A DNA stretch of 64,000 nt, taken from Haliotis cracherodii (Eukaryota). Below the pieces are notes generated by a model. The model made no database searches. It was not told the DNA's origin and was given only the letters and a program-made list of their open reading frames with translations. The stretch spans positions 33,852,001 to 33,916,000 of the forward strand of contig NW_027266266.1 of assembly GCF_022045235.1 (NCBI RefSeq), given 5' to 3'. The number at the start of each line of letters is the position of its first letter. Positions within the stretch are counted from its first letter, which is position 1. Shown piece after piece: positions 1-49,146 of the stretch. The translations under genes were made by a program, and so were the position numbers.

Positions 1-1030
1 TTCGCTGGCCACTACCTAAGAGATGTCACCTTTGGAAGGCATCCATAACTTTGGCCTTGTGGTGGTTACCCAAAAGGTCACTGTCCCTAGACGCCACTGA
101 CGCTTCCACATGTCGGGAGCCGACCTGTCAACCTCTCCGGTGTGTGACACCCTAGACAAGAAGGTGACATGCTACATGCACTGGCTCGGTATGTCAGTTC
201 TAGACTTTAACTCTGTTTAATTTCTTTTACTGCAATGATACCTGGACGTCACATACCTGACTCTCTCCTTCCCTGCCAACAGGAATGGTCACTCGATGCC
301 GGACATCACTGTTGCTGATTAGTGGAGACGAAGGAGAGTTTTGGAAAAACACATCTGATGGTATGCCCTCCTCCGTACTGTCAGATACAGATGCATTAAG
401 GAGTAATGCAGGATGAATTAAAAAATCTTGTAAAATCTAGATATTTTCTATATTTGTACACTTATCCCACATTACTCAAAGAGGCCCACCTGTTGCAGAG
501 CTGCCCTGCCATGATGTCTTCAGATGATCTGTTTTTACCAGTAATATGCTGATCAGTGATGTCACCTCTTCCGTGGTCACATGGTAGATGTGTGATAGGG
601 TTAGCCACTCAACCAGTTGGAACAACTTCTTCTTCAGCAAGACCTCTCACTGCCCTTTCTATGCCAAAAACAAGCAGTGAATGTATTAAGGAGTAATGCA
701 GGATAAGTAAAAAAATCAGGATATTTACCATCCACAAACACACAAGTGTGATAAACTCTTTATCAAATAATGTCATTCTTCAATTCTGTGCCCGAAAAAT
801 CTCTTCCCATCTCTCACAAACATTACGTAAACATTGCAAGTTTTCCTGGTATGTGCGCATTAATATATATTACGTCAGAAGGTAACAGACTTAGCCCTAC
901 AACTAGTTGGAACAACTTGTCTTCAGCAAGACCTCTCACAGCGCTTTCTCTGTCAAAAACAAGCAGTAAATGCTTTAAGGAGTAATGCAGGATAAGTATA
1001 CAAATATAAAAAATATTTAGATTTTAGTAG
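1..1030 (+). mobile_element. DIRS1-like retrotransposon copy 1, 3' end (YR tail, ICR ~388-475, ITR ~476-715, second partial ITR plus right extension ~890-1030)
   Basis: Colinear with ~18900-19590; the ICR halves are complementary to the two element termini. Confidence 0.8.
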
Positions 1031-1054
1031 AACTGTTGTGATATATATGTAAAG

Positions 1055-2010
1055 AGAGGGATATAAACTGATGTGATCTACAGATGGGACATATTCAGAA
1101 AAGGTTCTTCTGTTGTGGTATAGATGTAAACAGATTGGGTGTAACAGATGGGGTATATAGAGATGTGATATCAACATATGGGGAAAAAGAGATGGGATAT
1201 GAACAGATGGGGTATATATAGAGATGTGTTATATAGAGATGTGTTATAAACATCTGGGGTATAAGGAGATGGGATTTAAACTAGGGGTGTCACGATAAAT
1301 CGAAATATCGATATTGGTAAGAACTTGAAGTAATTAAATCGATTGTTAATTCAGTTTACGATCAATAGTATCGATTTCAGTAAAGAATATTGATAGCTTC
1401 GATTGCATTTACCATATCAATAAGATACATGCAATGCTGTTCAAATTTGTTTTTCTTTTCATCATGAGTGGCAGTAATTTCCACATAGTAATGTGGAAGT
1501 TTCTTTTTCTTAAATAATTTACTAACAGGGTAAAGAAAAAACAAATCAGTCATATCTAAAACTTTACTTTTAATTTGTTGTTATGGTTATCACATTCAAA
1601 GGAAACTTCAGTTCCAAGGTTTAAATCAACTCTAAATCCATCTGAAAACTATCGATATTTATCGCAATAGTTGGTTGCAATATCAATAGTTATCTCAATA
1701 GTTTCTTTCAATAGCAATAGTTATCGCAATAATGATTTCCAGACCAATAGTCACCCCGAATTTAAACAGATGGGATATAAACAGATGGGATATAAACAGA
1801 TGAGATTTAAACAGATGGGATATAAACTGATGGGATTTAAACAGATGGGATATAAAGAGATGGGATATAAACAGTTAGGATATAAACAGATGGACTTTAC
1901 ACAGATCGGACTTAAACAGATGGGATTTAATCAGATGGGTTCTGAACTGATGGGATAAAAACTGATGGGAATAAACATTGGATATAAACAGATAGGGTAT
2001 AAACTGTTGT
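1055..2010. repeat. 15-bp minisatellite (AAACAGATGGGATAT)n interrupted by a hAT MITE
   Basis: Visible tandem units on both sides of 1282-1759; the repeat generates the KQMGY pseudo-ORF. Confidence 0.9.
1282..1759. mobile_element. Non-autonomous hAT-like MITE
   Basis: TIRs TAGGGGTG...CACCCCGA, subterminal ATCG motifs, 8-bp TSD ATTTAAAC (1274-1281, 1760-1767). Confidence 0.85.
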
Positions 2011-2564
2011 GATGCTTAGACAGTATGCAAAGTAGTGTGATATAAATGAACCTCATCCATGAATTATTATATCCTATCTGTTTATATGATGACAGCATAT
2101 ATCCCATCTGCTTCATGGCAATTTATATCGAAGCTATATACCATCAAGATGAGGGTTTACAACCTAGTATCTGAATATACAGATGGTTAATCCCCCATGT
2201 TCTACCTGGCCATCCTCTGGAACTTTCATATTTAATGAAACTCTACTTTTGTCACTGGATTGGAATAGTAGGAATCCTATATCAGGAAGTGGTTTTCTGT
2301 TAGCCATCTCTCTCATGTTCCCCTGTCCATCATTTTACAGTTTTTGTATCTCTATGAGACTTAAAGGAAGATGAAGTTGGAACTGTACTTGGCCCCACAC
2401 AAGTCAGGTCTGATATTCAACAAATCAGCAGTGGTGGTAATATTGCAAGAAGTCACTTTTGTACTTTCAAAAATGTTGAGATATGTGGCAATTTGGCATG
2501 CAAAAACTTGTGACCTTTGTCGGCAGTACTGCAAACAGATGGGACCATAGAGTCTTACATCTCT

Positions 2565-15122: not shown

Positions 15123-15987
15123 CCAAAAGTCAAAGGTCGAATTGAACTGATGTACATAGGTATTTTGGTTGATCAATGTCACAACCTAAAAGTAACCAAT
15201 ATTAAACATTGTTGTGTTCCAGCTGGGTAGGGACTACTTTCAGTGATTACAAACCAACATGGCATCGCCCTTGTCATTTAGAAATCAAGTCAGAATTAAC
15301 CACAGGAGAAACTACTGGGCTAACTGCTATGATTATCCAAAGAATAGTCTCATATACTGAAAATCAGTGTCCAACTGTGACGTAGCTAAGGCATTTTACA
15401 AGTTTTAGAAACTTTGAAGATATAAACAATTTAGCGAAGATACTTGTCTAGCGGGATCAGTTACCATATCTGTGCTTGTAGACCCCTGTGGCTTGGAACC
15501 TTTTCCCAAAATGAAAACAGTTAGAATTGACCAAAATATGTCTGAATTGTTATCTTGTTTACTTTTGTCGCTGTGTGTACATCTGACTGCACTTTGTGAC
15601 ATTATGACAGGACAGGCAGATTCTAAACAAACGTGATGTCTCAAAGACTAGGGTTAGAGTAGCTTCCCTTTGAAAAAGTGCAGACCAGTGGATTGCTGTG
15701 AAAGGCAAGTAGAAACAATTTGTGTAGGCAGTTGTTGTTTTGGCTATTTGTAGTTACGCCACTGTATAAGAAACAGATTTCAGTTGGAACTATGTTGACT
15801 GTTGTCACTGTCCGACTGACACATCACTTACCTTCTGACGTAATATATATTGATGCGCACATTCCAGGAAAACTTGCAGTGTTTAGGTAATGTTTGTGAG
15901 AGATGGGAAGAGAACAGAATTGAAGAATGACATTATTTCATAAAGAGGTTATCACATTTGTGTGTTTGGGGATGGTAAATATCCTGA

Positions 15988-18900
15988 TTTTTTCACGTAT
16001 CCTGCATTACTCCTTAATGCATTCACTGCTTGTTCTTGACATAGAAAGAGCTGTATGAGGTCTTGCTGAAGAAAAGGTTGTTCCAATTGTTAGAGTGGCT
16101 AACCCTATCACACAGCTCCCAACTGACCACGGAAGAGGTGACATCACTGATCAGCACATTACTGGTAAAAACAGATCATCTGAAGACATCATTGGGGGAC
16201 AGCTCTGCAATGGATAGGTTACTTTAGAATTAAGCTAAAATATCTAGTAAAATCATCTTATCCTGCATAACTCCTTAATGCATCTTTATCAGACGGCATA
16301 CCTCCTTTGACTCCAACCAATTAGCAACAATGATGGCCAGCACTGATCAGCACATTATAGCTGTCACCTAGAGAACAGTCACATGTTTGAGAACTCTGCT
16401 TAATCTATTTGAATCCTTTGCTGATTTTATCAACCCTATTATTACATTGTGATTGTTATTCTGCTTACAGTTTGTCTCTTCATATATTTCATATGATTTC
16501 TGCCATAGCATTATTATTAAATGCCTGGTGGTGGTGTTTGCCGTTCCAATTAGCCATTTTGAATTCATTGCGTGGTCACGTTTGTTCATGTCATGCATTC
16601 TGTATTCTTTATATTGCTTGGTTTCCTTAATTCATTGTCTTACCCTTACATATTACCGTTATTAAAGAGGTGGTTATTTGCAGTTTCTAGCTCCTCCAGC
16701 CGCGCGAGACAGAGACAGCACCTCCTATGGATCTTGGTGGTACCTCTACAGTCCGTTCTTTCTCGTCACACGGCTCTGCCTCTCCTGGTTCAACATCCAG
16801 ACACAGTGGAAGCAAGACATCCCATTCAAGATGCTGCTCTCTTGTCTGGTGCTCTAGAAACTACCATTCCGACTCATCTGTATGTAGACTCCCACCTCGG
16901 CTTCAAGCAGGTCCCTGACTGGCTAGCGAATTGCCTGGCGACTGTCACTCCTTCACAGGGTCCAGAGATGGATAAACATCCAACATCCGTCCATCCTGAT
17001 CTGATGATCAAAGACAGGATATCAGCTTATGACAAAAACTTAGCCAAGCTTTCACTTACCGCCTCCTTCAAAGCACCCAAGTACAGGAACCATCTGTGTC
17101 ATGGATACTAGACTGGCATACATCGAGACGAAAATTGATTGCTCCATCAAGTCTCTTTCTATAATGGCATCCACCTCTTCAATGGCCAAGTCTCTGCCAC
17201 CCACTCCAGTGTCTCCACGGCTAGAGACAAGACTGCCTTCAAGGCCTTTCGTGGCAGTAGCCGTGGCAAGGGGAAGTCTACTGGAACCTACCAGCCGCGC
17301 TGTGACCATTCCCATAGAGGGAATGGTGACACAAGAATAAGTGATGATACGACGGATGCCAACGACTCGAATGTCCCATCCCTAGTTCCAATTGTCGAGA
17401 CACCTGTAGCTTGGAGAATAAGACTCTACTAGCAGAATTGGACCCATAAGTTATCAACATCCTGCGCCACCAGTTTCAACTCACACTGAGAGATGACCCG
17501 CCACTGACATCGTCACCATAGCAGATACCTGCCCCCCAACACAACAGCAGCTCCTTCTTTCCAACATCCGCATGCTGCTGGCCAATATTCCTCGTCCCCC
17601 ATGAAGGATTCGGACTCAGGGATGTGGTCTTCATCAGTGGCACATCAACAACCTAGAAATAGAGGCTCTCATCCTGGCTCTCTCTCACTGAAAACAGGCG
17701 CTTCAGCACTCAGATCACCATATCCACAGACAACATCACCGTCATCGGTGCCTCTGCAATTAGAGGACAACCCACTCCTCCTCCCTGTTCTGACGTTCTG
17801 GTTCTTCCAACTAGTTGATCAACTGGAGCTCCATTTGTCAACACCTCGGCTACGCCAACATCGACCTATTTGCCACCAGCCAGAACTTTCAGGTCGAGAC
17901 CTTCATATCTCCAGTGCTGGATCCACAAGCCTGGGCAGTCGATGCCTTCATTGTCCCCTGGGAAGAACTAATAGTGTACGCTTTTCCACCACCAGTGATC
18001 CTTCCCAGGGTAGTTCTAAAGATTAGGTTGACAAAGAGCCTCGCTGTGACTTTAATAGCGCCTGCGAGAGGCTGGTTTGTGGATCTCAATGAGACGTCAG
18101 CCATCTTCATGCCTGGTCCATCTACAAAGAGCCCTAAGCACCAAGGGTTACTCGTCAGGGACGGCAAAAGCAATCACCTTGGCCGACAGACCTTACACCA
18201 GGGGCCTTTATGATGACATGTGGTGTTCCTTCGAGAGTTTCTATAATTCTTGACAGAATTTCTACTATTTCTGTGCCTTTGTCTGTGGGTCAGCACCATC
18301 AAGACCTACCTTGTGGCCCTTAACTCTGTCTTGGCAGTTCCGGAAGATAGAAAGAAAACCAAGATTCCGGCACTCCCAGCAACAGTCTTCCTCTTGGCTC
18401 TGGCAACAGCAGCATGATTGAGTGAACTGCATGCTCTGGATATCACCCATGTTAGTTTTGAGTGTGGAGCGCATAGGAAGCCATTCATCTTGGGCTGTGA
18501 AGGGACTTCATAGCCAAGAATCAACTCCAAGGACAGACAGATAGATCCTTCACCATCCTGTGCCTATCTTCAATACTTGGGGTTAAAGATGAACAGGAAC
18601 TTCTACTGTGTCCAGTACTACTATTTGTGCACTGCGATGCTTCATTCGACACTCAAAGATTGGTTGAGGACAACAATGCCACCTTTTCATCCCAGTATCT
18701 ACGACATTGTAGGTGGAAGTCAGCCGCAAAACGATCACAATATGGCTTCACGCCATCATTCTTCAGGTCTATGGGGACTGGGACTGGACCCTCATTGAGC
18801 CAACAACCCGCATGAGATCTGGGTGGTCACCTGTACCATAATGCTTCACAGCAAATGTTCCATCCATGCCATTATGGAAGGCTGCTTCCAGTGGACACAG

Positions 18901-19596
18901 TCTTCACCCGCCACTTCTCGCAAGATGTTGCCTTAGAAGACGTCTAAGGTGGCCACAGCTTTGGCACTTTTGTGGTTGCCGAACAGGTCAGTGCCCCAGC
19001 ATGTCTGGAACCAACCTTTCGACCTCTCCCAGACACCCCAGACTAGAAGGTTACATGCTGCACGCATTGGTTCTAGACTTTAGCTTTGCTTAATTTTTAT
19101 TACTGCAATTATATTTGGACATCACGCATACCTCACTCTCTCGTCTCCTACCGACAGGAAAGGTTACTCAGTGCCAGACATCGCTGTTGCTGATTGGTTA
19201 GAGTCTATAGAATGTTTATTGAAGATCACATCTGAAGGTATGCTGTCTGATAAAGATGCATTAAGGAGTTATGCAGGATAAGTTAAAATATCTAGTGAAA
19301 TCTGGATATTTTTTATATTTGTATACTTATCCTGCATTACTTTGTCTAAAGTGGCCCACCTGTTGCAGAGTTGCCCTCCCATGATGTCATCAGATGATCT
19401 GTTTTTACCAGTAATGTGCGGATCAGTGATGTCACCTCTTCCGTGGTCACATGGGAGCTGTGTTAGCCACTCAACAAGGTGGAACAACTTCTTCTTCAGC
19501 AAGACCTCACACAGCGCTTTCTCTGTCAAGAACAAGCAGTGAATGCATTAAGGAGTACTGCAGGTTAAGTATACAAATATAAAAAACATCTGTATT
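15988..19596 (+). mobile_element. DIRS1-like tyrosine-recombinase retrotransposon copy 2, internally deleted
   Basis: Left ITR ~15988-16230 is inverted relative to the right ITR ~19340-19570; ICR 19256-19340; gag-like 16700-17340; DLFAT...AWAVDAF...W...YAFPP methyltransferase-like domain 17815-18070; YR motif TVFLLALATAA*LSELHAL at ~18383-18440. Confidence 0.88.
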
Positions 19597-19674
19597 GCCA
19601 AGGCTTGTTAAATACAATGTTTATTCCTAATACAGCATATTTACCATCCCTAAACACACCCACATGATAACATC

Positions 19675-20243
19675 TATATACCGATGATGTGTTGTAATCT
19701 CAGTGTTTGGTATTAATCTATGCCGATGATATGATGTAGTCTCCATGTTTGATATTAATTTATGCCGATGATATGTTATTGTTTCCATGTTTGATATTAA
19801 TCTTTGCTGATGATATGTTATTCTCTCCGTGTTTGATATTAATCTATGCCGATGATGAGTTGTAGTCTTCGTGTTTGATATTAATCTATGCCGATGATGT
19901 GTTGTAGTCTCAGTGGTTGATATTGATCTATGCCGATGATGTGTTGTAGTCTCAGTGGTTGATATTGATCTATGCAGATGATGTGTTCTAGTCTCTGTGG
20001 TTGATATTAGTCTATGCCGATGATGTGTTCTAGTCTCAGTGGTTGATATTAATCTATGCTGATGATATGTTGTTGTCTCAGGGGTTGATATTAATCTATG
20101 CCGAAGATGTGTTGTAGACTCAGTGGTTGATATTAATCTATGCTGATGATGTGTTGTTGTCTCAGTGGTTGATATTAATCTATGCCGATGATGTGTTGTA
20201 GTCTTCGTGTTTGATATTAATCTATGCCGATGATGTGTTGTAG
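19675..20243. repeat. 42-bp minisatellite, ~13.5 copies, whose last copy supplies the splice acceptor of exon B
   Basis: Unit TATTAATCTATGCCGATGATGTGTTGTAGTCTCAGTGGTTGA. Confidence 0.93.
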
Positions 20244-26511: not shown

Positions 26512-26717
26512 GTTTGCCATTGAAATCTGCCCTGGGATAAGGCAGTGAAAATATTCACTTCCATATGATTCCTGTGCTGCCTGTATGGTACCACAAGAAC
26601 TATTTCAACAATGGAACATTTTTTAATCTTTAAACCTTTCAATTAATTCACTACATGATTCCTTTTTTTTCAAGGCCTGTCATGTTTGGAATAAGTCACC
26701 CGGCATGTTTCTAGCCC

Positions 26718-27140
26718 TAAAATGTAGTTCTACCAGATTAGTATCTAATGACCTAAATGTTGTTCTACCAGATTAGTAAGTAATGACCTAAAATGTTGTT
26801 CTACCAGATTTGTATCTAATGACCTAAAATGTTGTTCTACCTGATTAGTATCTAATGACCTAAAATGTTGTTCTACCAGATTAGTATCTAATGACCTAAA
26901 ATGTTGTTCTACCTGATTAGTATCTAATGACCTAAAATGTTGTTCTACCAGATTAGTATCTAATGACCTAAAATGTTGTTCTACCAGATTAGTATCTAAT
27001 GACCTAAAATGTTGTTCTACCAGATTAGTAACTAATGACTTAAAATGTTGTTCTAGCAGATTTGTATCTAATGACCTAAAATGTTGTTCTACCTGATTAG
27101 TATCTAATGACCTAAAATGTTGTTCTACCTGATTAGTATC
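26718..27140. repeat. 36-bp minisatellite (~11.5 copies) in the putative 3' UTR
   Basis: Unit TAAAATGTTGTTCTACCAGATTAGTATCTAATGACC, no spacers. Confidence 0.95.
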
Positions 27141-27915
27141 ATGTGTTGTACTGTTGCCATGTTATAGGAAACATTCCATGATATGTATTGTGCTGTTGCC
27201 ATGTTACAGGAAACATCCCATAAGATGTGTATTGTACTGTTGCCATGTTACAGGAAACATTCCATGATATGTATTGTACTGTTGCCATATTACAGGAAAC
27301 ATTCCATGATATGTATTGTACTGTTGCCATGTTACAGGAAACATTCCATGATATGTATTGTACTGTTGCCATGTTACAGGAAACATCCCATAAGATGTAT
27401 ATTGTACTGTTGGCATGTTACAGGAAACATCCCATAATATGTGTATTGTACTGTTGCCATGTTACAGGAAACATTCCATGATATGTATTGTACTGTTGCC
27501 ATGTTACAGGAAACATTCCATGATATGTATTGTACTGTTGCCATGTTACAGGAAACATCCCATAATATGTGTATTGTACTGTTGCCATGTTACAGGAAAC
27601 ATTCCATGATATGTATTGTACTGTTGCCATGTTACAGGAAACATCCCATAATATGTGTATTGTACTGTTGCCATGTTACAGGAAACATTCCATGATATCT
27701 ATTGTACTGTTGCCATGTTACAGGAAACATTCCATGATATGTATTGTTCTGTTGCCATGTTACAGGAAACATCCCATAATATGTGTATTGTACTGTTGCC
27801 ATGTTACAGGAAACATCCCATAAGATGTATATTGTACAGTTACCATATTACAGGAAACATCCCATAAGATGTGTATTGTACTGTTGCCATGTTACAGGAA
27901 ACATCCCATGATATT
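27141..27915. repeat. 42/44-bp variant minisatellite (~18 copies)
   Basis: Unit ATGTATTGTACTGTTGCCATGTTACAGGAAACATTCCATGAT, with a 44-bp CATCCCATAA variant. Confidence 0.95.
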
Positions 27916-28339
27916 TATGGTATTGCTGCTCGGTAAGATGAGATGTTTATTGGCATTATGTCTGTGATGTCTACAGCATATTCAAGAGGGTTCTTTTGTA
28001 ACTTTTTCATAACAGTTGCATAAACGGCTTTGTCAGTAAGAGCTGGTACAAAATATTGTGCCAATAATACAGTTAAAATGATTATGCCCTGTTTACCATT
28101 TCCTTCAGTTACAAGTACACACAACCACACTTATTCATTGGAAAATGTAATATAAGTTATTGCATTATGGATAAAAGAATAATTTGTAAAGTCCGTTTGT
28201 TATTGTTCTTGATTGAAAATGTGAATATTTGGCACAAAGGCAGAAGTTATATGCTTTCACCAGTTTTTTGTTGATGACACAACAGGAACTCGGAATTGAG
28301 ATTCAGCTGTAGGATGCATTTTGGTATGTCTTTAGTATA

Positions 28340-32102: not shown

Positions 32103-32169
32103 TGGGTGGTTAGGCTCGCTGACTTGGTTGATGCATGTCATTGCGTGAATCGATGCTCAGGATGTCAAT

Positions 32170-33405
32170 CATCTCCGCCAGCTGATTCACTGTATGAAAC
32201 AGTTCTACCGCCAGAACATCTCCTCCACCAGCTGCTTCACTGCATCAAACAGTTCCACCGCCCGAACATCTCCTCCGCCAGTTGCTTCACTGCATCAAAC
32301 AGTTCCACTGCCCGAACATCTCCTCCGCCAGCTGCTTTACTGCATCAAACAGTTCCACCGCCCAAACATCTCCGCCAGCTGCTTCACTGCATCAAAAAGT
32401 TCTACCGCCCGAACATCTCCGCCAGCTGCTTCACTGCATCAGAAAGATCTACCGCCAGAACATCTCCTCCGCCAGCTGCTTCACTGCATCAAACAGTTCT
32501 ACCGCCCGAACATCTCCTCCGCCAGCTGCTTCACTGCATCAAACTGTTCTACCGCCCGAACATCTCCTCCGCCAGCTGCTTTACTGCATCAAACTGTTCT
32601 ACCGCCAGAACATCTCCTCCACCAGCTGCTTCACTGTATCAAACAGTTCTAGCGCCAGAACATCTCCTCCGCCAGCTGCTTCACTGCATCAAACAGTTCT
32701 ACCGCCCGAACATCTCCTCCGCCAGCTGCTTCACCGCATCAAACTGTTCTACCGCCAGAACATCTCCTCCGCCAGCTGCTTCACTGTATCAAACAGTTCT
32801 AGCGCCAGAACATCTCCTCCGCCAGCTGCGTCACTGCATCAAACTGTTCTACCGCCAGAACATCTCCTCCGCCAGCTGCTTCACTGCATCAAACTGTTCT
32901 ACCGCCAGAACATCTCCTCCGCCAGCTGCTTCACTGCATCAAACAGTTCTACCGCCAGAACATCTCGTCCGCCAGTTGCTTCACTGTATCAAACAGTTCT
33001 ACCGCCAGAACATCTCCTCCGACAGCTGCTTCACTGCATTAAATAGTTCTACCACCAGAACCTATCCTGCGATAGCTGCATCACTACATTAAACAGTTCC
33101 ACCTCCCGAACCTCTCCTCAGCCGGTTGCTTCACTGCAACAAACAGTTCTACTGACCGAACCTCTCCTCCAGCAGCTGCTTTACTGCATCAAACAGCTCT
33201 ACCGTCCGAACATCTCCCCCGCCAGCTGCTTCAAAGCTTCAAACAGTTCTACAGCCAGAACATCTCTGCCAGCTGCTTCACTGCATCAAACATTTCTACC
33301 GCCCGAACATCTCCTCCGCCAGCTGCTTCACTGCCCCAAACAGTTCTACCGCCAGAACATCTCCTCCGCCAGCTGCTTTACTGCATCAAACAGTTCTACC
33401 ACTCA
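32170..33405. repeat. 50-bp minisatellite (~25 copies)
   Basis: Unit CATCTCCTCCGCCAGCTGCTTCACTGCATCAAACAGTTCTACCGCCAGAA. Confidence 0.95.
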
Positions 33406-33574
33406 AAACTACAGTAGGCAACTTTGATCTGAAGTATCTTTAGATGACACTAGTGACACTACGCTAGACGATTTTATTTAATATCTGTCTGTTATCCCTC
33501 GATAAAAGCACACAAATGAAAAACAATCCTTATGATTACCAAGTTAATCCTTTCGTAGAATGGTGAATAGTGAG

Positions 33575-36500
33575 TGTTAGAGCCGAATTTTAGGTATTTG
33601 TGGTTCATTGAGAATCCTTTTAATTGGAACTTTGTTAGGGTTTGTATGTGTGCATGGATGCATGTGTTTAGTATAATTATAAGATAAAACATTAGAAACA
33701 GCCAGCCCTTGCTGCCAGTGGCCGTTTCAGGCTATTTTCCCAGGGGTTGGTGACAGCAATAGTATAATGTTGCAGCTAAGACTTTAATTGTTTTGTGTGG
33801 AGTCTTAGAGGTCGTGACCTGATCATCAGCGATAAGCATCCCACAAGAATTTCAGATATATAGCTGGACGAATGAGTGTGAGAAAGAGAGCAGAGAGTTT
33901 TAAGATACGAAAGAAGTAAGACATGTTTCTAAGAGAGTGTAAGAAGATTGTGTTAAGGGAATAGAGGACATACGGTTTTTCAACTTGTCCGAGCTACTGT
34001 CCGAGCTACTGTCCGAGCCACGGTACAAGCTATCCTGCATTTATCCTGCAACTGTGCTGCGACTGTTTATTATATTACGACTTATTCTTGGAGTGTGTGA
34101 TATGTTATTCAATCATTGTGTGGATATTCACTGAATTTATGGAATTATGGTATATGGAATTTGTGAAGTTTGAAATTAAAGACAATATTAAAGTGCTGGA
34201 TCGAGTTGAAACTTTGATATCCTCTATCTCCATTAATTAGATAATTTAAGAGTTCACATTAAAAGTTGAAAAACCCGTGAAAATCCGGATGTAAACCTAA
34301 GACTTGGACATGGAGAAGATTGTGTCTCCATTCGTGAATTGGCAACAGGATCCTGCAAAGTTCAAAACGGATTAACACAGATTGGATTAAGGACTCGAAG
34401 TCGAGGTAAGGTATTTTATTTTCTCAAGAAGTTGACATTGTGAAGTAAATGTGACTTTTATGGTTTTATCAATGCGTGATAAAAGAACTTACGGGTAATA
34501 AGACTACCTGTTCGAGTATTGAAGTGTGTGTTTATTCAGAAACAAGCAAATACAGGAGGGATTATATGTCACTGGAATCGTGTATACACCGAATTGGACT
34601 TATCACATAGGATTACGGAACTCAAGAACTGTAAGTTACATCAAATATTTCATGATTATTGGAACTGGTGTTGAACTGATTTGAAATCATGGCAAGTAGA
34701 ACATTGAGTGATGCTGTTACAAGTGACAAAGAACTGATTCATGAATCTGCAAGAAATGCTAAATCATTAATAACTGAATCAAGATTAAGAAAACAGACTG
34801 AAAAGGGCCAAAAATATGTTTTGAACATGGCACAGGATAAAATGAAATTCTTATACAAGCAGGTTTCTTCAAAGATAAAGGACATTGAGTATTTGATGAG
34901 CTCTGATGCAGATTTGGATGCCGTCAAAAATGAATTTGAAGATTGGAAGGAATTATGTGACAAGTTTCAAGAATCGGCTAAAGCTTATCATGAAAAACTT
35001 CATAGCCAATCAGCTAAAGGCGATGAAGCAACTTGGTTCCAATCAAAGTTAGGCACCTTTTCGCAGTTTGAAAGAAATGTTACCTCCTTCATTAAACATT
35101 ACAGTACGGGAGATGACATTTGACCAGAAGATAGTGTTTCTCAAGTTGGATTACCTAAGGGTTCAGTAATCTCCTCTGCCTCCTCTGCCAAAATGGAGAT
35201 CCTTGCAAAAAGGGCAGAACTTATTGCCAGACAGAAATGTTTAGAACGAAGACACCAATTAGAAGAAGAAGAAAACAGATTAAAACAAAGACGAGAAAGA
35301 TTAGAACTTGAGACAGAAGTAGAAATTGCCGATGCCCAGTATGAAATTTTTGACCAGTATGACCGAGAATCACACAGTTCTCGAAAACCATAAAGTTCAC
35401 TAAGGTCCTTCAAGCAAGTAAAGACCCGAAATAAAGATTTGAACCCAGAAGCTGAAGAATTTACCCCTATACAGAGTACAAACCTACAGGTTGGAGTCCA
35501 CAATTCAAAATTTGATGAAGTATGTAAGCAACAGAATGAGATAATCCAGCTAGTGGTAGAACACCAGAAACTGGCCACGCTACCCACTAGGAAGATTCCT
35601 GTGTTCAGTGGTGACCCACAACAGTTTAAGCCCTTCATACAAGCATTCGAGCATGGTATAGAAGATAAAACCATCAATTCAAAAGATAGGCTCTATTACT
35701 TGGATCAGTACACCAACGGTGAACCGAATGACTTGGTAAGAAGCTGCCTATTCATGAACCCTGAAAGTGGCTATGAACAAGCCAGGTCACTGTTGGATAA
35801 GAAATTTGGGAACAAGTACAAGATAGCAACAGTTTACATGGACAAAGCATTGAAATGGCCGGCTATTAAGTCAGAGGACAGCGAAGCACTTAACAGCTTT
35901 GCTGTATTCCTGACCAGCTGTGGAAATACCATGACCGATATCGACTATCTAAGAGAATTAGAACACCCAAAGAACATCAGAGAGTTGATCCAAAAGTTGC
36001 CATATAAGTTAAGAGAAAGATGGAGAACAGTTTCGTTTAATATCTTGGAAAGAAGAAATGTCACCTTTGCGGACCTTGTTGGTTTCGTAGATAAACAAGC
36101 ACAGATCTTGTCAAGTCCTTTGTTTGGCAATATCATCGACGACATCCAAGTTCAAGCAAGACCAAAGATGAAAGAAGCGCCAAAGAGATATAAGAGCTTT
36201 GCTACCGACACATCAAAGTCTGAATTAGGTCAAGAAACTGCCACCAGGGCAGCCTACCCAGTTCAACCAAAATTGATGACATCTGGTAAGCCATCTGCAA
36301 CTAGAGAAAGAACAGCCAACACGTCTAGAGCATTCATCAAGCCATGCTGGTTCTGCAATGAGGACCACACCATGGAAATGTGCAAGGGAATGCAGTGTAA
36401 GACGTTGGATGAGAAGACTGACTTCTTAAGACCAAAGGGCTTGTGTTTTGGCTGCTTACAATTTGGACATATGAGTCGCGACTGCCCCAGCAGATTGACA

Positions 36501-39500
36501 TGTCATATATGTAAACTGAGACATGCAACCTGTTTTCATGACAACAGTAAGGACAGAGAAAAGAAAGAAATGGACCAAACGAAGCCAAGGGTTGTCACAA
36601 ACAACAGTTTGGCTACGAGTGAGAGCGGGGACCACAAAGACTTGAGCTACATGCCTGTGATCCCTGTTAGGATTAAAGTCAACTCTGGTGACAGATATGT
36701 CAAAACATATGCCTTCCTTGACAACGGCAGTTCAGCAACCTTTTGTACCAGCAATTTGGCAGAGGAGCTGGAAAGATGACAAACATAGTTGTCAGCACCA
36801 TGACTCAAAGGAAAACTGTAAATACCTCCATCCTATCAAATCTAGAAGTTGGTGACATTGACGGAAACAATTGGGTCAAACTGCCTACTGTCTTTACACA
36901 GGATGAAATGCCAATTTCCACAAGCACAGTCCCCAAAGAAAAGTTCATACATCAATGGTCCCATCTACAGGACGTCACACTACCACCTATAGATGCGGAG
37001 ATAGGACTCCTTATTGGCAACAATGTCCCAAGAGCAATGGAACCGTATGAGATAATCAACAGCGATGGTAACGGGCCCTATGCAGTCAGAACCATTCTTG
37101 GATGGATTGTAAATGGGCTAGTACAGGAATCAGAATCTCCCAGTGAGATCTCAGTAAACAGGACTGACGTTCTTGGAGACGAGAAATTGGATCTTCAGTT
37201 AATAGGATACTTCAACAGGGAGTTCAACGAGCGCATCAGTAATGATCAACCTGAGATGTCAAGAGACGACAAGCAATTCTTAGACATCATGAACTCCTCA
37301 AAGACACTGACAGGAGGACATTACCAGATGTCACTCCCATTCAAAGATGCCCAATTAGATTTTCCTAACAATAAACTACAAGCTGAACAAAGAGCCATTT
37401 CACTTAAGAAGAAATTTAAGAAGAATGAAAACTTTTATGAAGACTACAAGGTATTCATGAAAGATCTCCTGGACAAAGACTATGCCCAGAAAGTACCAGA
37501 GAATAAGAAAGACCGTAAGGATGGAAAGGTGTGGTATATACCACATCATGGTGTGTACCATCCAAAAAAGCCAGAGAAGATACGAGTTGTATTTGACTGT
37601 GCAGCAACTTTCAGAGGGAAATCTCTAAACGACCACCTTCTACAGGGGCCGGATCTAACCAATACCCTATTGGGAGTGCTCCTGAGATTTCGCCAAGAAC
37701 CAATAGCTCTGATGGCAGACATCGAAGCTATGTTTTACCAGGTTAGAGTTGAACCAGACGACTATGATGTTCTGCGGTTCCTATGGTGGCCCAATGGAAA
37801 CTTGGAGGAAGAATTACAAGAACATCAGATGAAAGTGCACTTATTTGGCGCTGTCTCATCACCAAGTTGTGCCAACTTTGCCCTGAAAGAAACAGTGAAG
37901 GACAACATGGACTTGTTTGGCAAGGAAGTTGTTCATGCTGTTGAAAAGAGTTTCTACGTGGATGACTGTCTTACTTCAGTCCAATCTGAGAAAATGGCCA
38001 TTGAAATGTCACATAAGCTGAGAGAAATCTGTAAGAAGGGTGGATTTCGCTTGACAAAATGGATAAGTAACAGCAGAGCTGCGATAGAATCAATCCCAGA
38101 AGAGGAGCGAGCCAAAGAAGTTAAAGACTTGGACATAGATGATGCTTTACCAATCGAAAGGGCATTAGGTGTACACTGGTGCGTCGAATCAGATACATTT
38201 GAATTCCGGATTGCAATCAAAGACAAACCAATAACGAGAAGAGGAATACTGTCAACTGTCAGCTCCATCTATGATCCATTAGGATTTGCAGGCCCTTATG
38301 TTCTCAAAGCAAAGGGAATTTTACAAGACCTCTGCAGACTTAAGATAGGATGGGATGACGTAATCCCCGTTCCCTTGCAGAAGGACTGGACCAAATGGTT
38401 GTCGGAACTACGCAGGCTTGAGGAAATGGTGATTAGAAGATGCATTCAACCAAATGATAGTAATCAGAAGATGGTATCTCAAATACATCATTTTTCGGAT
38501 GCCAGTGAAACAGGTTATGGAACTGTTTCTTACCTAAGACAAGTCAGTAGCACTGGTCAAATTCATTGTGCATTTCTCATCAGCAAATCGAGAGTTGCCC
38601 CACTTAAGCAGATCACGATACCAAGAATGGAGCTATCAGCCGCTACTCTAGCAATACGGGTAGACAGTATGCTCAAATGAAAGCTGGAAATGCCAATTGA
38701 CCAAACTTACTTTTGGTCAGACAGTATGTCAGTTTTAAGATACATCGCCAATGATTCAATGCGATTCCATACCTTTGTGGCAAATAGGCTGTCAGTAATT
38801 CATGAAGGCTCAAGCCCATCTCAATGGAAGTATGTGGACACTCAGAACAATCCTGCTGATGAAGCATCTCGAGGACTGTCAATAGATGCATTTCTGAAAG
38901 ATACCAGATGGCTCTCAGGACCAAAGTTCATGTGGGAAGATGAAGAAATGTGGTCTCAACAGACACACATTTTAACAGATATTCCCAAGAAAGACGTTGA
39001 ATTAAAGAAGGTTGCCCGAGTCAACTTGATAGACTACAGCAAGCCATGTAAGGACATAGACAGCCTTATCAGTCACTATTCTGACTGGTTTGCACTGAAG
39101 AAAGCTATCGCATGGGTGCTCAGGATACGGGAAGTACTCCTGGATCGCAGTCAAAAGAAGAAGGCAGGCTTAGCACCTCAGCAAAGCATGCCTGTAGTGT
39201 TGACTGTGAAAGACTTAGAAAATGCAGAGAAAGCCATTGTTTGCTATGTTCAACAGCAAGACTTTTCAAGTGAACTTGAAAGACTTAATTCAAACAAAGA
39301 GCTTGATTTGAACAAAGGTAGTCCAATCTCCAAGTTTGATCCATTTGTAGAAGATGGTGTGCTGAGGGTGGGTGGAAGACTAAGTCGCGCTAACATGCCC
39401 GAAAGCTCCAAACACCCAGTGATTCTACCAAAGAAATCGCATGTCTCGGAACTGATTATTCGCCATGTTCATCGTGAATGTGGGCATTCAGGCAGAAACT

Positions 39501-41590
39501 TTGTACTTTCAAAATTGTTTGAGAAATATTGGATTATCAAAGCCAATGCAGCAGTGAGGCAAGAAATACACAGATGTTTAACTTGCCGACGCAATCAAGT
39601 TGTAGCAGATAAGCAAAAGATGGCTGACTTGCCATCTCAACGTGTGACTCCTGATGAACCTCCTTTTACCTTTGTTGGAGTGGATTACTTTGGTCCATTT
39701 GATGTAAAACGTGGACGAAAGCATGAAAAAAGGTATGGAGTTTTGTTCACGTGCCTCACAACTCGTGCTGTGCACATAGAAGTGGCGTATAGCTTAGACA
39801 CTGACTCTTGTATTAATGCATTGCGCCGTTTCATGGCTAGAAGAGGTCAAGTCAAAGTCATCAGATCAGATAATGGTACCAACTTTGTTGGAAGTGAGTG
39901 TGAGCTCAGAGAAGAGTTAAGAGAACTGGAACAAATGTCAGATTCATCAAGAGATGTTACAAAGAAATGTTGAATGGACATTCAATCCTCCTGCTGGTTC
40001 CCACCATGGCGGCGTGTGGGAGAGACAAATCAGAACCGCGAGAAAAGTGTTGAGATCTCTGGTAAGAGAACAAACGTTAGATGATGAAACTTTGCGAACT
40101 GTGTTGTGTGAGGTAGAGGCTATTATCAATAATAGACCTATCTCCAGAACATCAAGTGATCCAAATGATTTGGAAGCCCTCACTCCAAATCACTTGTTGC
40201 TCTTGAAAAGAAAACCAAATTTGCCACCAGGTATGTTTGGTATGGATGGTCATTATCCAAGACGGAGGTGGCGTCAAGTGCAGTACATGGCAGATCTGTT
40301 TTGGAAGAGATGGTTAAGAGAGTGCCTGCCATTCCTACAGGAGCGACAGAAGTGGGTGAAGCTTAGAAGAAATTTGAAGATTGGTGACATTGTGCTCATA
40401 GTGGACAATACTGCACCTAGAAACTCTTGGTCGATGGGCAAGGTTGTGAAGCTTATGCCTGACAGAAAGGGTGTTGTAAGACGGGTTGAGGTGAAAACCC
40501 AGACAAAGGTTTTGGACAGACCTATTAGCAAGCTATGTTTGCTTCTAGAGAGTGACACTTAAGCTGTGTTTTGAGATTGTGTGATGTTGACACTGCCTTA
40601 AAGACAGGATCAAGACTTTGAGGCTTATGAAGTGTTGACAGTATAGAACATAGGATGTAATTCCTGTACAATGTTCAATGACAATGAGCTGTCTTGATGT
40701 TAAGATGAATGGCATTGATCAATATTGTATGTTTACTACATTCATGCATAATGTAAAAGACTAAGATTTAAATATGACAAACAGGATCATCTTATGTTAT
40801 AGAATGTAGTTATGCAGCTAATTACAGTTGCTTAGGAAGACATTGTTGTACATTCAAAATTCGCTCTGTCCATGAGTTCTTGGTAATTGTTATAGTCAAA
40901 TACAAGTAACAATTAGGGGCCGGAATGTTAGAGCCGAATTTTAGGCATTTGTGGTTCATTGAGAATCCTTTTAATTGGAACTTTGTTAGGGTTTGTATGT
41001 GTGCATGGATGCATGTGTTTAGTATAATTATAAGATAAAACATTAGAAACAGCCAGCCCTTGCTGCCAGTGGCCGTTTCAGGCTATTTTCCCAGGGGTTG
41101 GTGACAGCAGTAGTATAATGTTGCAGCTAAGACTTTAAAGTTAATTGTTTTGTGTGGAGTCTTAGAGGTCGTGACCTGATCATCAGCGATAAGCATCCCA
41201 CAAGAATTTCAGATATATAGCTGGACGAATGAGTGTGAGAAAGAGGAGAGAGTTTTAAGATACGAAAGAAGTAAGACATGTTTCTAAGAGAGTGTAAGAA
41301 GATTGTGTTAAGGGAATAGAGGACATACGGTTTTTCAACTTCTCCGAGCTACTGTCCGAGCCACGGTACAAGCTATCCTGCATTTATCCTGCAACTGTGC
41401 TGCGACTGTTTATTATATTACGACTTATTCTTGGAGTGTGTGATATGTTATTCAATCATTGTGTGGATATTCACTGAATTTATGGAATTATGGTATATGG
41501 AATTTGTGAAGTTTGAAATTAAAGACAATATTAAAGTGCTGGATCGAGTTGAAACTTTGATATCCTCTCTCTCCATTCACAGTGTTCACA
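33575..41590 (+). mobile_element. Full-length BEL/Pao LTR retrotransposon
   Basis: LTRs 33575-34258 and 40926-41590 (TG...CA), 5-bp TSD GTGAG (33570-33574, 41591-41595), polypurine-like tract TAGGGGCCGGAA before the 3' LTR. Confidence 0.97.
34689..40562 (+). pseudogene. BEL/Pao gag-pol polyprotein, disrupted (stops at ~35121, 35391, 38678; frameshifts at ~36770, 39940)
   Basis: DUF1759-like gag, three Cys/His knuckles, protease FLDNGS, RT YVDD, Pao RNase H FSDAS, integrase GVDYFGP / RSDNGTNF / GGVWE, DUF5641-like tail. Confidence 0.95.
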
Positions 41591-42074
41591 GTGAGGTCAT
41601 GTACAAGGATATTTAAGGATTGTGTTTCAAATTCTTTTGCGAATCCTTTCGAAGGAAACGTCCGTAATATGCTGGCCAAAGTTGAAGGTACGTTGTTATT
41701 GATAATCAAGCAATCGGCCGTGATCCCTCTGTTTGACTACCCGATCTGTTTGATCATGAGCGCTTTATCACTGCAACTGTAAATAAAAGTCAAGAGCTCT
41801 TCCTTACTTTTGATATTCTTGAGCGCTATATCTGTAAACACATCCCCCATCTTGCGTAGACTCACTGCTAGTTAGCTGTGAATTGATAATACATGACCTG
41901 TATTTAATTGTATCCTTGTTTCCTGCATGTTGTCCATTTGTACCATTGTTTTCTATATGTCTCGTTTATATCATAAAACGGTGTGTATTCAGAGCTAATT
42001 CGTCGGTTTGGCGGTCACGACACCAACAGCAGAATCCCTCAAATTATGTTTTTGGCACTGTTTTTTGGTGTGTT

Positions 42075-42565
42075 TGTCATTGTCTACTCAAACTATTGAC
42101 AGTGTGTGTATCTTTGTCCACTCAAACTATTGACAGTGTGTGTATCTTTGTCCACTCAAACTATTGATAGTGTGTGTATCTTTGTCCACTCAAACTATTG
42201 ATAGTGTGTGTATCTTTGTCCACTCAAACTATTGACAGTGTGTTTATCATTGTCTACTCAAATCTTTGACAATGTGTTTATCATTGTCCACTGAAACTAT
42301 TGACAGTGTTTTTATCATTGTCTACTCAAACTATTGAGAGTGTGTTTATCATTATCTACTCAAACCTTTGACAGAGTGTTTATCATTGTCTACTCAAACT
42401 ATTGACAGTGTTTTATCAGTCTCCTCAAACTATTGAGAGTGTGTTTATCATTATCTACTCAATCTATTGACAGTGTATTTATCATTGTCTACTCAAACCT
42501 TTGACAGTGTGTTTATCATTGCCTACTCAAACCTTTGACAGTGAGTTTTTCATTGTCTACGCAAA
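42075..42565. repeat. 32/34-bp minisatellite
   Basis: Unit CTCAAACTATTGACAGTGTGTTTATCATTGTCTA and shorter variants. Confidence 0.92.
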
Positions 42566-42619
42566 CCTGCATGGCATTTGTACAACAATGTAGTGATACC
42601 CACGTTCTCCAAATTGGGT

Positions 42620-45409: not shown

Positions 45410-46520
45410 TTCACCTGCAGTGGAGCTGTACATAAGCCCTTTCACCTGCAGCAATGGCGCTGTATATACCCCCGTTACAGCTGCAGTGGAGTTTTATGAC
45501 ACCCCCGTGACTGCTACAGTGGAAGTTTATATTACCCTGTGATATTTGCAGTGGAAGGTTTAATACCCTGTGATATTAGCAGTGGAAGTTTATATTACCC
45601 TGTGCCATCAGCAGTGGAAGGTTATACTGCCCTGTGACATTTGCAGTGGAAGTTTATATTACCCCGTGATATCAGCAGTGGAAGTTTATATTACCCTGTG
45701 ACATTAGCAGTGAAAATGTATATTACCCTGTGATATCAGCAGTGGAATGTTATATTACCCCGTGATATCAGCAGTGGAAGGTTATACTACCCTGTGACAT
45801 TTGCAGTGGAAGTCTATATTACCCTGTGACATTAGCAGTGAAAATGTATATTACCCTGTGATATCAGCAGTGGAAGTTTATAGTACCCTGTGACATTTGC
45901 AGTGGAAGTTTATACTACCCTGTGACATTTGCAGTGGAAGTTTACATTACCCTGTGCCATTAGCAGTGGAAGTTTATATTACTATATTACCCTTTGATAT
46001 CAGCAGTGAAAATGTATATTACCCTGTGATATCAGCAGTGGAAGTTTATATTACTTTGTGCCATTAGCAGTGGAAGTTTATATTACCCCGTGATATCAGC
46101 AGTGGAAGTTTATATTACCCTGTGACATTAGCAGTGAAAATGTATATTACCCTGTGATATAAGCAGTGGAATTTTATAATACCCTGTGACATTTGCAGTG
46201 GAAGTTTATACTACCCTGTGACATTTGCAATGGAAGTATATATTACTATATTACCCTGTGATATTTGCAGTGGAAGTATATATTACCCTGTGATATTTGC
46301 AATGGAAGTATATATTACTATATTACCCTGTGATATTTGCAGTGGAAGTATATATTACCCTGTGATATATGCAATGGAAGTATATATTACCCTGTGGCAT
46401 TTGCAGTGGAATTTGATATTACCCCGTGACATTTTCAGTGGAATTTGTCATCACCCCCGTGACATTTGCAGTGGAATTTTATATTACTCTGTGCCATTTG
46501 ATGGGGAATTCACCCCGTAG
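45410..46520. repeat. 32-bp minisatellite
   Basis: Unit GCAGTGGAAGTTTATATTACCCTGTGACATTT, with diverged edge copies. Confidence 0.93.
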
Positions 46521-46539
46521 CATGGTCGTACACATTAGT

Positions 46540-47060
46540 AAGCTGCAACACGATTATATACATGGGATGATCTGATATAACATTGAGCTGCAAGACACGA
46601 TTCTATATATGGGATGATATGATATAACGGTAAACTGCAAGACACGATTATATACGTAGGATGATCTGATAAAACAGTCAGCTGCAAGACAATATTATGT
46701 ACATGGGATGATCTGATATAACAGTACGCTGGGAGAAACGATTATATACATGATGTGAACTGATATAACAGTAACCTGCAGGACACGATTATATACATGG
46801 GATGATCTGATATAACAGTACACTGTAAGACACGATTATATACATGGGATGATCTGATGTAACAGTACGCTGTAAGACATGATTATATACATGGGATGAT
46901 CTGATGTAACAGTACGCTGTAAGACACGATTGTATACATGGGATGATCTGATATAACAGTACGCTGTAAGACACGATTATATAAATGGTTTGAACTGATA
47001 TACCAGTAACCTTCAAGACACGATTATATACATGGGATGATCTGATATAACAGTACACTA
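46540..47060. repeat. 47-bp minisatellite (~11 copies)
   Basis: Unit ACACGATTATATACATGGGATGATCTGATATAACAGTACGCTGTAAG. Confidence 0.93.
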
Positions 47061-48070: not shown

Positions 48071-48294
48071 TGTTCAATGCACTTATTGATCATCATCATG
48101 TGTAAGCTTTCGTTTTGTATGAAAGCGTCTTTGTTTTACACCACTTTCTTTGTGATATTTCTATATCCGAATAACGATGTCTTTAGAGTTGACATTTATG
48201 TCGAACCATCCCTATTGTCAACATATACACATGTGAAATATGTTCTCCAAACATCGGAGGTTATGTTCGAAAATAACCGATGATTACAGAAATA

Positions 48295-49146
48295 AATAGA
48301 GGAAATCACGCGAGTGTGTTTGGGGATGGTAAATATCCTGCATTAGGAATAAACATTGTATTTAGCGAGCCTTGGTGCGCATTAATATTTATTACGTCAC
48401 AGGGTTAGTGATGATTGTGTCAGTCGGACAGTGACAGTAGCCAATAGAGTTCCAAGTGAAATCTGTTTCTTATACAGTGGCGAAGCAACATATACGCAAA
48501 ACAACAATTGTTTTTACTTGCCTTTCGCGGCAATTCATCGGTCTGTCCGCTAGAGTAACTGCCCTTTGTCAAAGGGAAGCTACTCTTACCCTAGTCTATG
48601 AGACGTCACGGCCTCGTTCAGACGTTGTTGACAGTCGGCCTGTTCTGTCATAACGTTAAGAAACGAAACAAGGTAACAATTCATACATATTTCGCCTAAA
48701 TCCAACTATTTTTATTTGTGGAAAAGGTTTCAAGCCGCAGAGATCTACAAGCACAGATATGGCTACTGATCCCGCTTGACTAGGCCTAGTGCCCTCGCAA
48801 AATTGTTTCAAAATTTATATCTCCAAATTTGCCAAACTTTTAAAATGTTTTTTTAAAACTTAGTTACGTCACAGATAGACACTGATTTTCAGTATCTAAG
48901 ACTGTTTTTTTGGATAATTATAGCAATTATCCCTGTAGTTTATCCAGACTTAAGATGGTTAATTATGACTCGATCGCCGAATTACAAGTGCGACGCCATG
49001 TTTGTTTATAAACACTGAAAGTAGTCACTGCTTGACCTTTGATATTTGCATCTCTATCTGCATATGATCACAACAGATATCGTTTTTATCCGTTGGCTTT
49101 ATCCTGCCGAGTAACCTACCCATTATATGATAAACAGATTTATCAA
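48295..49146. mobile_element. Repeat X, uninterrupted copy
   Basis: Starts ATAGAGGAAATCACGCGAGTGTGTTTGGGGATGGTAAATATCCTG; reverse complement of the three intronic pieces. Confidence 0.8.

What the first reader, a model, noticed from the sequence alone, without database searches (positions are those of the whole stretch)
476..1030. DIRS copy 1 carries an inverted copy of copy 2's left junction, including host flank, inside its right end
Seen: 476-885 is the reverse complement of ~15826-16230, i.e. left ITR plus ~160 bp of flanking repeat X across the same junction (ATATCCTGA|TTTTTT). It has the GTGTGATAGGGTTAGCC variant of copy 2's left ITR, which copy 2's right ITR lacks. A normal right ITR end and extension then resumes at ~890-1030. 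Inference: either ITR-mediated template switching captured 5' flank (transduction by a YR retroelement), or ectopic conversion occurred over 15 kb, or the family repeatedly targets the same site in repeat X.
Basis: partly seen in the sequence, partly recalled or inferred. Interest (0 to 1): 0.7.

Follow-up and report, generated by a model that had tools for sequence, protein, structure and literature searches.

The report
Repair scar between neighbouring DIRS retrotransposons
A decayed jumping gene carries inside its right end a back-to-front copy of a neighbouring element's left end plus 169 bases of the DNA beside it; no other family copy examined has this, and it is likely the scar of a one-off DNA-repair error, an ordinary kind of event rather than a new way of moving host DNA.

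Summary
The structure is real, with corrections. Window 493-885 is the reverse complement of 15828-16210 (352/393): copy 2's left end plus 169 bp of a high-copy repeat X. A 5-nt filler, a second partial ITR and a right extension follow (891-1030).

Other sites do tie the tract to copy 2 (661A in 1 of 51 ends; X 766A in 0 of 33 copies). The tract groups with copy 2's left end (94/86), while the two interiors are not sisters.

The X|ITR junction is at these two places only, and 0 of 51 other ends abut X. Targeting and family-wide transduction are therefore not supported.

Best reading: one old repair event in cis. Copy 1's right end likely invaded the inverted ITR 15 kb away, copied past its end and rejoined without homology. 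Two more terminus-anchored inverted copies lie within about 22 kb, against 0 of 15 other two-ended elements. The 885/891 joint was not confirmed in reads. Known kind of event, low interest.

The parts
1..405 (+). Copy 1's own 3' interior (DIRS family A), not derived from copy 2
   Evidence: 18.4% from copy 2 over 109-300, rank 8 of 20; lacks copy 2's 12-bp deletion, 383T and 405T
406..526 (+). Interval that holds the homologous joint; contains copy 1's intact internal complementary region (about 408-470)
   Evidence: last own-type site 405, first rare site shared with copy 2 at 527; 431-477 is complementary to 980-1026
527..716 (+). Spacer and ITR copied from copy 2's left end; ends in a left-type terminus
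   Evidence: 527A (2 of 31 others), 567T (2 of 50), 661A (1 of 51), 679G (5 of 50); sister to copy 2 left end 94/86
717..885 (-). 169-bp inverted piece of repeat X, copied from copy 2's left flank 15828-15986
   Evidence: 8 substitutions in 159 columns plus a 10-bp gap; shared private 766A in 0 of 33 other X copies
886..890 (.). 5-nt filler at the non-homologous return joint
   Evidence: matches neither the donor's nor the ITR's continuation; not bridged in listed contigs
891..1005 (+). Outer 115 bp of copy 1's native right ITR
   Evidence: family state at 661 and 679; 12% from 601-716 and 13% from copy 2 left
1006..1030 (+). Right extension (rE), complementary to the ICR; end of copy 1
1031..2386 (+). 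Right flank F; an inverted copy of it stands just upstream of the window
   Evidence: 2010-2386 matches 2 places in the genome
15229..15986 (+). Left part of the repeat X copy that copy 2 interrupts; 15828-15986 is the donor stretch
   Evidence: continues at 19598
15987..16164 (+). Left ITR of copy 2
   Evidence: family left ITR about 178 bp
16165..16345 (-). Inverted copy of copy 2's own spacer, ICR (with a small deletion and micro-inversion) and interior, which lengthens the left ITR; returns to the ITR tail at a 6-bp microhomology
   Evidence: shares the 12-bp deletion (0 of 20 others) and 405T (0 of 24) with copy 2's right end
16340..19262 (+). ITR tail and decayed interior of copy 2
   Evidence: homologous to relatives with recombinase and RT Pfam hits; 0 of 8 of its own frames hit Pfam
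19263..19587 (+). ICR, spacer, right ITR (8-bp deletion) and truncated rE of copy 2
19588..19680 (+). Right part of repeat X (rest of its terminal palindrome), with small deletions at the joint

Best explanation
Copy 1's right end holds an inverted copy of copy 2's left end and 169 bp of its flank, likely made in one old, local DNA-repair or replication template switch. Inferred steps: (1) copy 2 had inserted into repeat X, and its left ITR had been lengthened by an inverted copy of its own spacer and ICR; (2) a break or collapsed fork in copy 1's right end left a 3' end that invaded this inverted homologous stretch 15 kb away (seamless joint between 405 and 527); (3) synthesis ran through the ITR, over the element's end and 169 bp into X; (4) the strand let go and was joined, without homology and with a 5-nt filler, to copy 1's own right ITR at 891, so that 115 bp of ITR now stand twice. 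Shown: the anatomy, the donor and the uniqueness among the copies sampled. Inferred: the break, the pathway and the order of events.
For: One homologous and one non-homologous joint. Donor identified by rare shared sites and by a tree: the three window ends form one group 90/96, copy 1 tract with copy 2 left 94/86, 34 rows; the interiors are grouped in 0% of 200 bootstrap trees, 18 rows. Junction only here; 0 of 51 other ends abut X; in 15 other elements with both ITRs the inverted match is 123-187 bp and stays within the ITR. The donor is the neighbouring copy although the ITR query has 1,236 first-look candidates genome-wide, which points to copying in cis rather than through a diffusible cDNA. 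The 8.1% divergence (31 of 383) excludes an assembler-made duplicate. The outcome fits one-sided invasion and low-processivity template switching with return to the original template (passages of PMC9299229, PMC4888836, PMC7407515).
Against: Raw distances are weakly informative: over 601-716 copy 2 left ranks only 21st, and over 476-540 copy 1 is closer to copy 2's right end (6.3%) than to its left (17.5%); the left end's differences cluster beside a local micro-rearrangement. Site 668A is shared by 601-716 and the native tail (1 of 51 others), which pure copying from copy 2 does not predict. Only one X site is strictly private to both. Tree supports (90/96, 94/86) are below the tool's starred level. 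No clear microhomology at 885/891, and that joint is not confirmed in reads. Only the best 40 candidates per search were scored.
Confidence: 0.75

Rival explanations
1. Two steps: a crossover between copy 1's right ITR and copy 2's left ITR inverted the 15-kb interval; a later break 169 bp into X on the inverted chromosome was joined to the uninverted homologue at 891.
For: Gives the same product; the two ITRs are inverted relative to each other.
Against: Needs two events and an inversion allele for which there is no trace. Copy 2's lengthened left end comes from its own right end, not from copy 1, so no reciprocal product is seen.
Confidence: 0.1
2. The element's own machinery took part: a recombinase nick at a resident terminus started the repair, or a read-through RNA or cDNA of copy 2's left end and flank served as the template.
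For: The three ends are about equally far apart (8.9-10.3%), so the event is about as old as the last time copy 2's ends were identical, possibly its insertion. Three inverted copies within about 22 kb all begin at DIRS termini. Both ITRs of Dictyostelium DIRS-1 have promoter activity (PMC4482531, search listing only).
Against: A diffusible cDNA had about a thousand candidate ITRs yet the recipient is the neighbour. No poly(A) and no splice-site cut at 885. 0 of 15 other two-ended elements show such extensions. Anchoring at termini is also what homology alone predicts.
Confidence: 0.08
3. The 885/891 joint is an assembly error.
For: Not bridged by a listed contig; depth 0 at 891-897 in two of four runs.
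Against: Both sides are copy-1-specific in run X1 (688-822 and 997-1100, 0 differences); the filler is in neither source; depth 17.3 in X5 is near that run's single-copy level; the tool warns that a hole proves nothing.
Confidence: 0.04
4. 5' transduction: a daughter of copy 2 carried X along during retrotransposition.
For: The junction is shared at the nucleotide level.
Against: Copy 1's interior is not a daughter of copy 2; no dispersed copies with the flank; in the published model the transcript lacks most of the left repeat and the ends are rebuilt from the ICR (PMC7192593 Introduction).
Confidence: 0.02
5. The family inserts repeatedly at the same site of repeat X.
For: DIRS elements integrate at short trinucleotide motifs (PMC3266345 passages).
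Against: 0 of 51 ends abut X; junction patterns gave 1 match (copy 1 itself) and 0 matches; the X piece in copy 1 is a 169-bp fragment inside an ITR and shares 766A with copy 2's flank.
Confidence: 0.01

Closest known systems
One-sided invasion / SDSA from an ectopic donor finished by end joining (templated insertion)
   Same: One homologous joint, copying beyond the end of homology, one non-homologous joint with filler (PMC9299229 and PMC7407515, passages).
   Different: Natural and old (8% diverged); the homology is the ITR of a DIRS element; the break site cannot be seen.
FoSTeS/MMBIR and inverted-repeat-driven DUP-TRP/INV-DUP rearrangements
   Same: First switch at an inverted repeat, short inverted synthesis, second switch without long homology, kilobase range (PMC4888836, passages).
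   Different: The strand returns to the starting locus, so the gain is 289 bp, not a large duplication or triplication; no clear microhomology at the return joint.
DIRS1-like tyrosine-recombinase retrotransposons
   Same: ITRs, ICR, right extension, ATT start, recombinase and RT remnants in relatives (PMC3266345, PMC7192593).
   Different: Both window copies are decayed and rearranged; copy 1 lacks its left ITR and is fused to a second family.
Non-autonomous Helentrons (HINE / DINE-1-like), for repeat X
   Same: About 1 kb, sharp ends, T-rich 5' end, a 14-bp subterminal inverted repeat and a 3' palindrome (PMC4067079 passages).
   Different: X's palindrome spans about 160 bp against 5-10 bp in the mite HINEs described; no autonomous partner was sought.

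Membership tests
DIRS1-like retrotransposon (family A) | Inverted terminal repeats with divergent outer parts | tested here: met
   123-187 bp inverted matches in 15 elements; left- and right-type termini
DIRS1-like retrotransposon (family A) | ICR complementary to the left start and to the right extension | tested here: met
   431-477 versus 980-1026 and 391-427 versus 681-717; ICR in most right ends
DIRS1-like retrotransposon (family A) | Tyrosine recombinase and RT coding | tested here: inconclusive
   0 of 8 frames of copy 2 hit Pfam; 5 of 14 frames of relatives hit: Phage_int_SAM_5 three times (two above cut-off), RVT_1 (E 4.6e-6) and Phage_integrase (E 6e-4), both below cut-off
DIRS1-like retrotransposon (family A) | NTT trinucleotide at the start, no target-site duplication | tested here: met
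   left ends mostly start ATT; no duplication at copy 2, whose right joint is damaged
DIRS1-like retrotransposon (family A) | RNase H and methyltransferase domains | tested here: inconclusive
   no such Pfam hit in the 22 broken frames scanned
Retrotransposon transduction | Flank carried to new insertion sites by daughter copies | tested here: not met
   0 of 51 ends; junction at 2 local places only
Retrotransposon transduction | Carrier's interior descends from the source copy | tested here: not met
   18% apart; 0% of 200 bootstrap trees
Site-specific targeting of repeat X | Many independent insertions at the same X site | tested here: not met
One-sided invasion / template-switch insertion | One homologous joint and one non-homologous joint | tested here: met
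One-sided invasion / template-switch insertion | Identifiable intact donor nearby | tested here: met
MMBIR specifically | Microhomology at the return joint | tested here: not met
   5-nt filler, no shared bases at the joint; later decay could have hidden them
One-sided invasion / template-switch insertion | Dependence on RAD51, polymerase theta or BIR factors | not testable with these tools
   ancient event
HINE / Helentron (repeat X) | Subterminal inverted repeats and 3' palindrome | tested here: inconclusive
   present, but the palindrome is far longer than described
HINE / Helentron (repeat X) | Autonomous Rep/Helicase partner with the same ends; TT target | not tested
   not searched

The most novel reading that the evidence does not exclude
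Resident DIRS termini are active hot spots for inverted flank capture: recombinase nicking or ICR/ITR hairpins at an element end prime synthesis on a neighbouring inverted end, so that clusters of DIRS copies repeatedly duplicate adjacent host DNA in inverted orientation without transposing. This locus would show three such events (169 bp of X; about 180 bp of copy 2's own interior; up to 1.36 kb of single-copy flank).
Probability: 0.1. Interest if true: 0.55.

Novelty: new member of a known kind. Interest (0 to 1): 0.22.

Why it matters
As it stands it is a clear natural example of repeat-guided, error-prone repair in a germ line, and a warning for repeat curation: an ITR-bounded copy can contain foreign flank without transduction. 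It would matter more if a census showed that DIRS ends seed such captures more often than other repeats, because that would give DIRS clusters a way to duplicate host DNA without transposing. The sample here (0 of 15 two-ended elements, 0 of 51 ends) does not suggest a common process.

Tried and rejected

2. The segment as a constant part of the family: rejected.

3. A staggered-break inversion that would explain both the X piece and the F/F' duplication: it predicts X left of F'; none was found in the 10 kb upstream.

4. Reciprocal exchange with copy 1 as donor of copy 2's lengthened left end: the diagnostic deletion and 405T point to copy 2's own right end.

5. Rolling-circle read-through by X into the DIRS end: the tract starts inside X, not at its end, and merges homologously with copy 1 (inference).

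6. Spliced RNA origin: the break lies 5 bases beyond a donor-like GT, not at it.

7. Read check of 885/891: inconclusive; only short-read contigs were laid and the lists were cut. The junction contigs of X5 (690-843, 5 differences, 1 gap) and X7 (685-795, 5 differences) cannot be assigned to copy 1 or copy 2.

8. The exact pattern missed copy 2's own junction because of one substitution, so it is a weak test for old copies; one search found nothing.

9. Raw p-distance over 601-716 did not single out the donor.

10. Earlier findings of the scan: nothing returned.

11. Literature on DIRS flank transduction: one search gave 6 papers and one search listed 15 of 21; by title and abstract start none treats it. 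Only listings were seen, so this is no proof of absence from print.

Full report
Setting. The window is G000:C3:33852001-33916000 of a 1.18-Gb genome in 80 contigs. Two decayed copies of a DIRS-type family (A) lie in it in the same orientation: copy 1, whose right end is at 1-1030, and copy 2 at 15987-19587. The family has ITRs, an internal complementary region (ICR) and a right extension (rE), the layout described for DIRS1-like elements (PMC3266345, passages; PMC7192593, passages and Introduction). None of 8 frames of copy 2 hits Pfam; 5 of 14 frames of relatives give weak recombinase or RT hits.

The observation. 493-885 is the reverse complement of 15828-16210 at 352/393: 23 substitutions in 224 columns of spacer and ITR, 8 in 159 columns of X, and one 10-bp gap. 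476-492 does not belong to that match (7 mismatches in 17). After 885 come five filler bases, then the outer 115 bp of a right ITR and the rE (891-1030). 717-885 is an internal piece of repeat X, a 1-kb element with sharp ends and a terminal palindrome (1,286 candidates, 40 scored). Copy 2 interrupts one X copy in the left arm of that palindrome; X resumes at about 19588-19598 with small deletions.

Is it real? A contig of run X1 covers 688-822 without a difference, across the ITR|X junction and across 6 substitutions and the gap that distinguish copy 1 from copy 2; X1 may be the source sample. Contigs from organisms B and C cover 200-414 with 4 and 6 differences, so copy 1 itself is probably shared with them. 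The 885/891 joint was not bridged in the listed pieces; depth at 891-897 was 0, 17.3, 44.1 and 0. An 8% divergence between tract and donor excludes an assembler-made duplicate, but this one joint awaits long reads.

Where did the tract come from? Better sites exist. Copy 1's tract shares 527A (2 of 31 others), 538C (5 of 32), 567T (2 of 50) and 679G (5 of 50) with both ends of copy 2, and 661A (1 of 51) with the left end only; the tail at 891-1005 has the family state at 661 and 679. In X, 766A is shared by the two and absent from 33 other copies (34 extracted, one duplicate dropped); 747T and 880A are shared but common (7 and 11 of 33). A tree of 493-716 (34 rows) groups the three window ends (90/96), with copy 1's tract sister to copy 2's left end (94/86); a tree of the interior 109-405 (18 rows) groups copies 1 and 2 in 0% of 200 bootstrap trees. 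Copy 1 lacks the 12-bp deletion and 405T that both ends of copy 2 share (0 of 20 and 0 of 24 others), so the homologous joint lies between 405 and 527. Against this reading: raw distance over 601-716 ranks copy 2's left end only 21st, 476-540 is closer to copy 2's right end (6.3% against 17.5%), and 668A is shared with the native tail (1 of 51 others).

Local or family-wide? A 101-bp query across the junction matched both sides at only the two window places among 40 scored of 891 candidates. Exact junction patterns gave one match, copy 1 itself, and none. None of 27 ITR loci outside the window had X within 1.5 kb. In 35 regions of 10 kb, 0 of 51 ITR ends had X in the next 400 bp, and in the 15 elements with both ITRs the inverted match was 123-187 bp, confined to the ITR (a 16th, degraded pair in L107 gave 119 bp). 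These are the best-scoring copies, not a census. Targeting and transduction both predict dispersed carriers and are not supported.

Mechanism. One seamless homologous joint, copying past the end of homology, and one non-homologous joint with filler are the signature of one-sided invasion finished by end joining, or of a replication template switch that returns to its template (PMC9299229, PMC7407515, PMC4888836; passages). The donor is the neighbouring inverted ITR although the ITR query has 1,236 candidates genome-wide, which argues for copying in cis. The three ends are 8.9-10.3% apart, so the event is about as old as the last time copy 2's ends were identical. Break, pathway and order are inferred; a crossover inversion followed by a join to the uninverted homologue gives the same product and cannot be excluded.

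Two further inverted copies. (1) Copy 2's left ITR is lengthened by an inverted copy of its own spacer, ICR and interior (16165-16345), which returns to the ITR tail at a 6-bp microhomology. This could be a mis-primed fold-back of the step in which the left repeat is rebuilt from the right (PMC7192593 Introduction), or later repair; it gave copy 1 a longer homologous target. (2) Upstream of the window, L061:7324-8016 is an inverted copy of copy 1's rE end and flank (1002-2386, skipping about 1155-1836 within a minisatellite), with 2 mismatches and one 11-bp gap over 1970-2386; 2010-2386 occurs only at these two places in the genome. It abuts the left end of a second ITR family (B), whose first 1.5 kb (88.8% to a copy in L083) is fused to family A interior about 470 bp before the window. 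Copy 1 is thus a chimera without its own left ITR. Three terminus-anchored inverted copies in about 22 kb, against none in 15 other elements, are the unusual aspect. Closely spaced inverted homology is the simplest cause; a role of the element's recombinase is the bold reading (0.1).

Verdict. A real, one-off, old repair-type insertion of a known kind. Interest 0.22. Papers seen: PMC7192593 (passages and Introduction); PMC3266345, PMC9299229, PMC7407515, PMC4888836, PMC4067079 (passages); PMC4482531 (search listing only). No supplements were consulted. The searches showed no title on DIRS flank transduction; only listings were read.

Noticed in passing
L061:7324-8016 (G000:C3:33849324-33850016) versus window 1002-2386: Inverted duplication of copy 1's rE end and of otherwise single-copy flank on the other side of copy 1; about 99% identical in its unique parts, so much younger than the event in the finding or homogenised later.
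   Followed up: partly
L061:8015-9530 (just upstream of the window): Left ITR and first 1.5 kb of a second ITR-bearing family (B; 205 candidates), sitting in an inverted family A rE and fused to family A interior: copy 1 is a chimera. Fits the reported preference of DIRS-1 for pre-existing DIRS sequence (PMC7192593).
   Followed up: partly
window 16165-16345: Copy 2's left ITR is lengthened by an inverted copy of its own right-end interior, with a micro-inversion of about 24 bp and a deletion inside the ICR copy (16232-16256).
   Followed up: partly
window 15229-15986, 19588-19680 and 48293-49100: Repeat X: about 1 kb, high copy, subterminal inverted repeat and a terminal palindrome of about 160 bp; HINE/Helentron-like. 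The copy at 48.3-49.1 kb lacks the left arm of the palindrome.
   Followed up: partly
L075:2501 and L083:5704: Two family A ITRs (one right, one left) are interrupted by the same foreign sequence at about the same position; in L075 (as L034) it follows a TTAA. Possibly a TTAA-specific transposon (label recalled).
   Followed up: no
window 1263-1760: An AT-rich stretch of about 500 bp interrupts the minisatellite in flank F and is absent from the inverted upstream copy.
   Followed up: no
window 35141-40562 and 33572-34234 / 40923-41577: Long open frames (461, 652, 430 aa) between two 669-bp direct repeats at 96% identity: probably an LTR-type element; not examined.
   Followed up: no
window 19677-20243, 26706-27929, 32166-33400, 42068-42568, 45417-47059, 50930-51407, 56252-56963: Many tandem arrays.
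   Followed up: no
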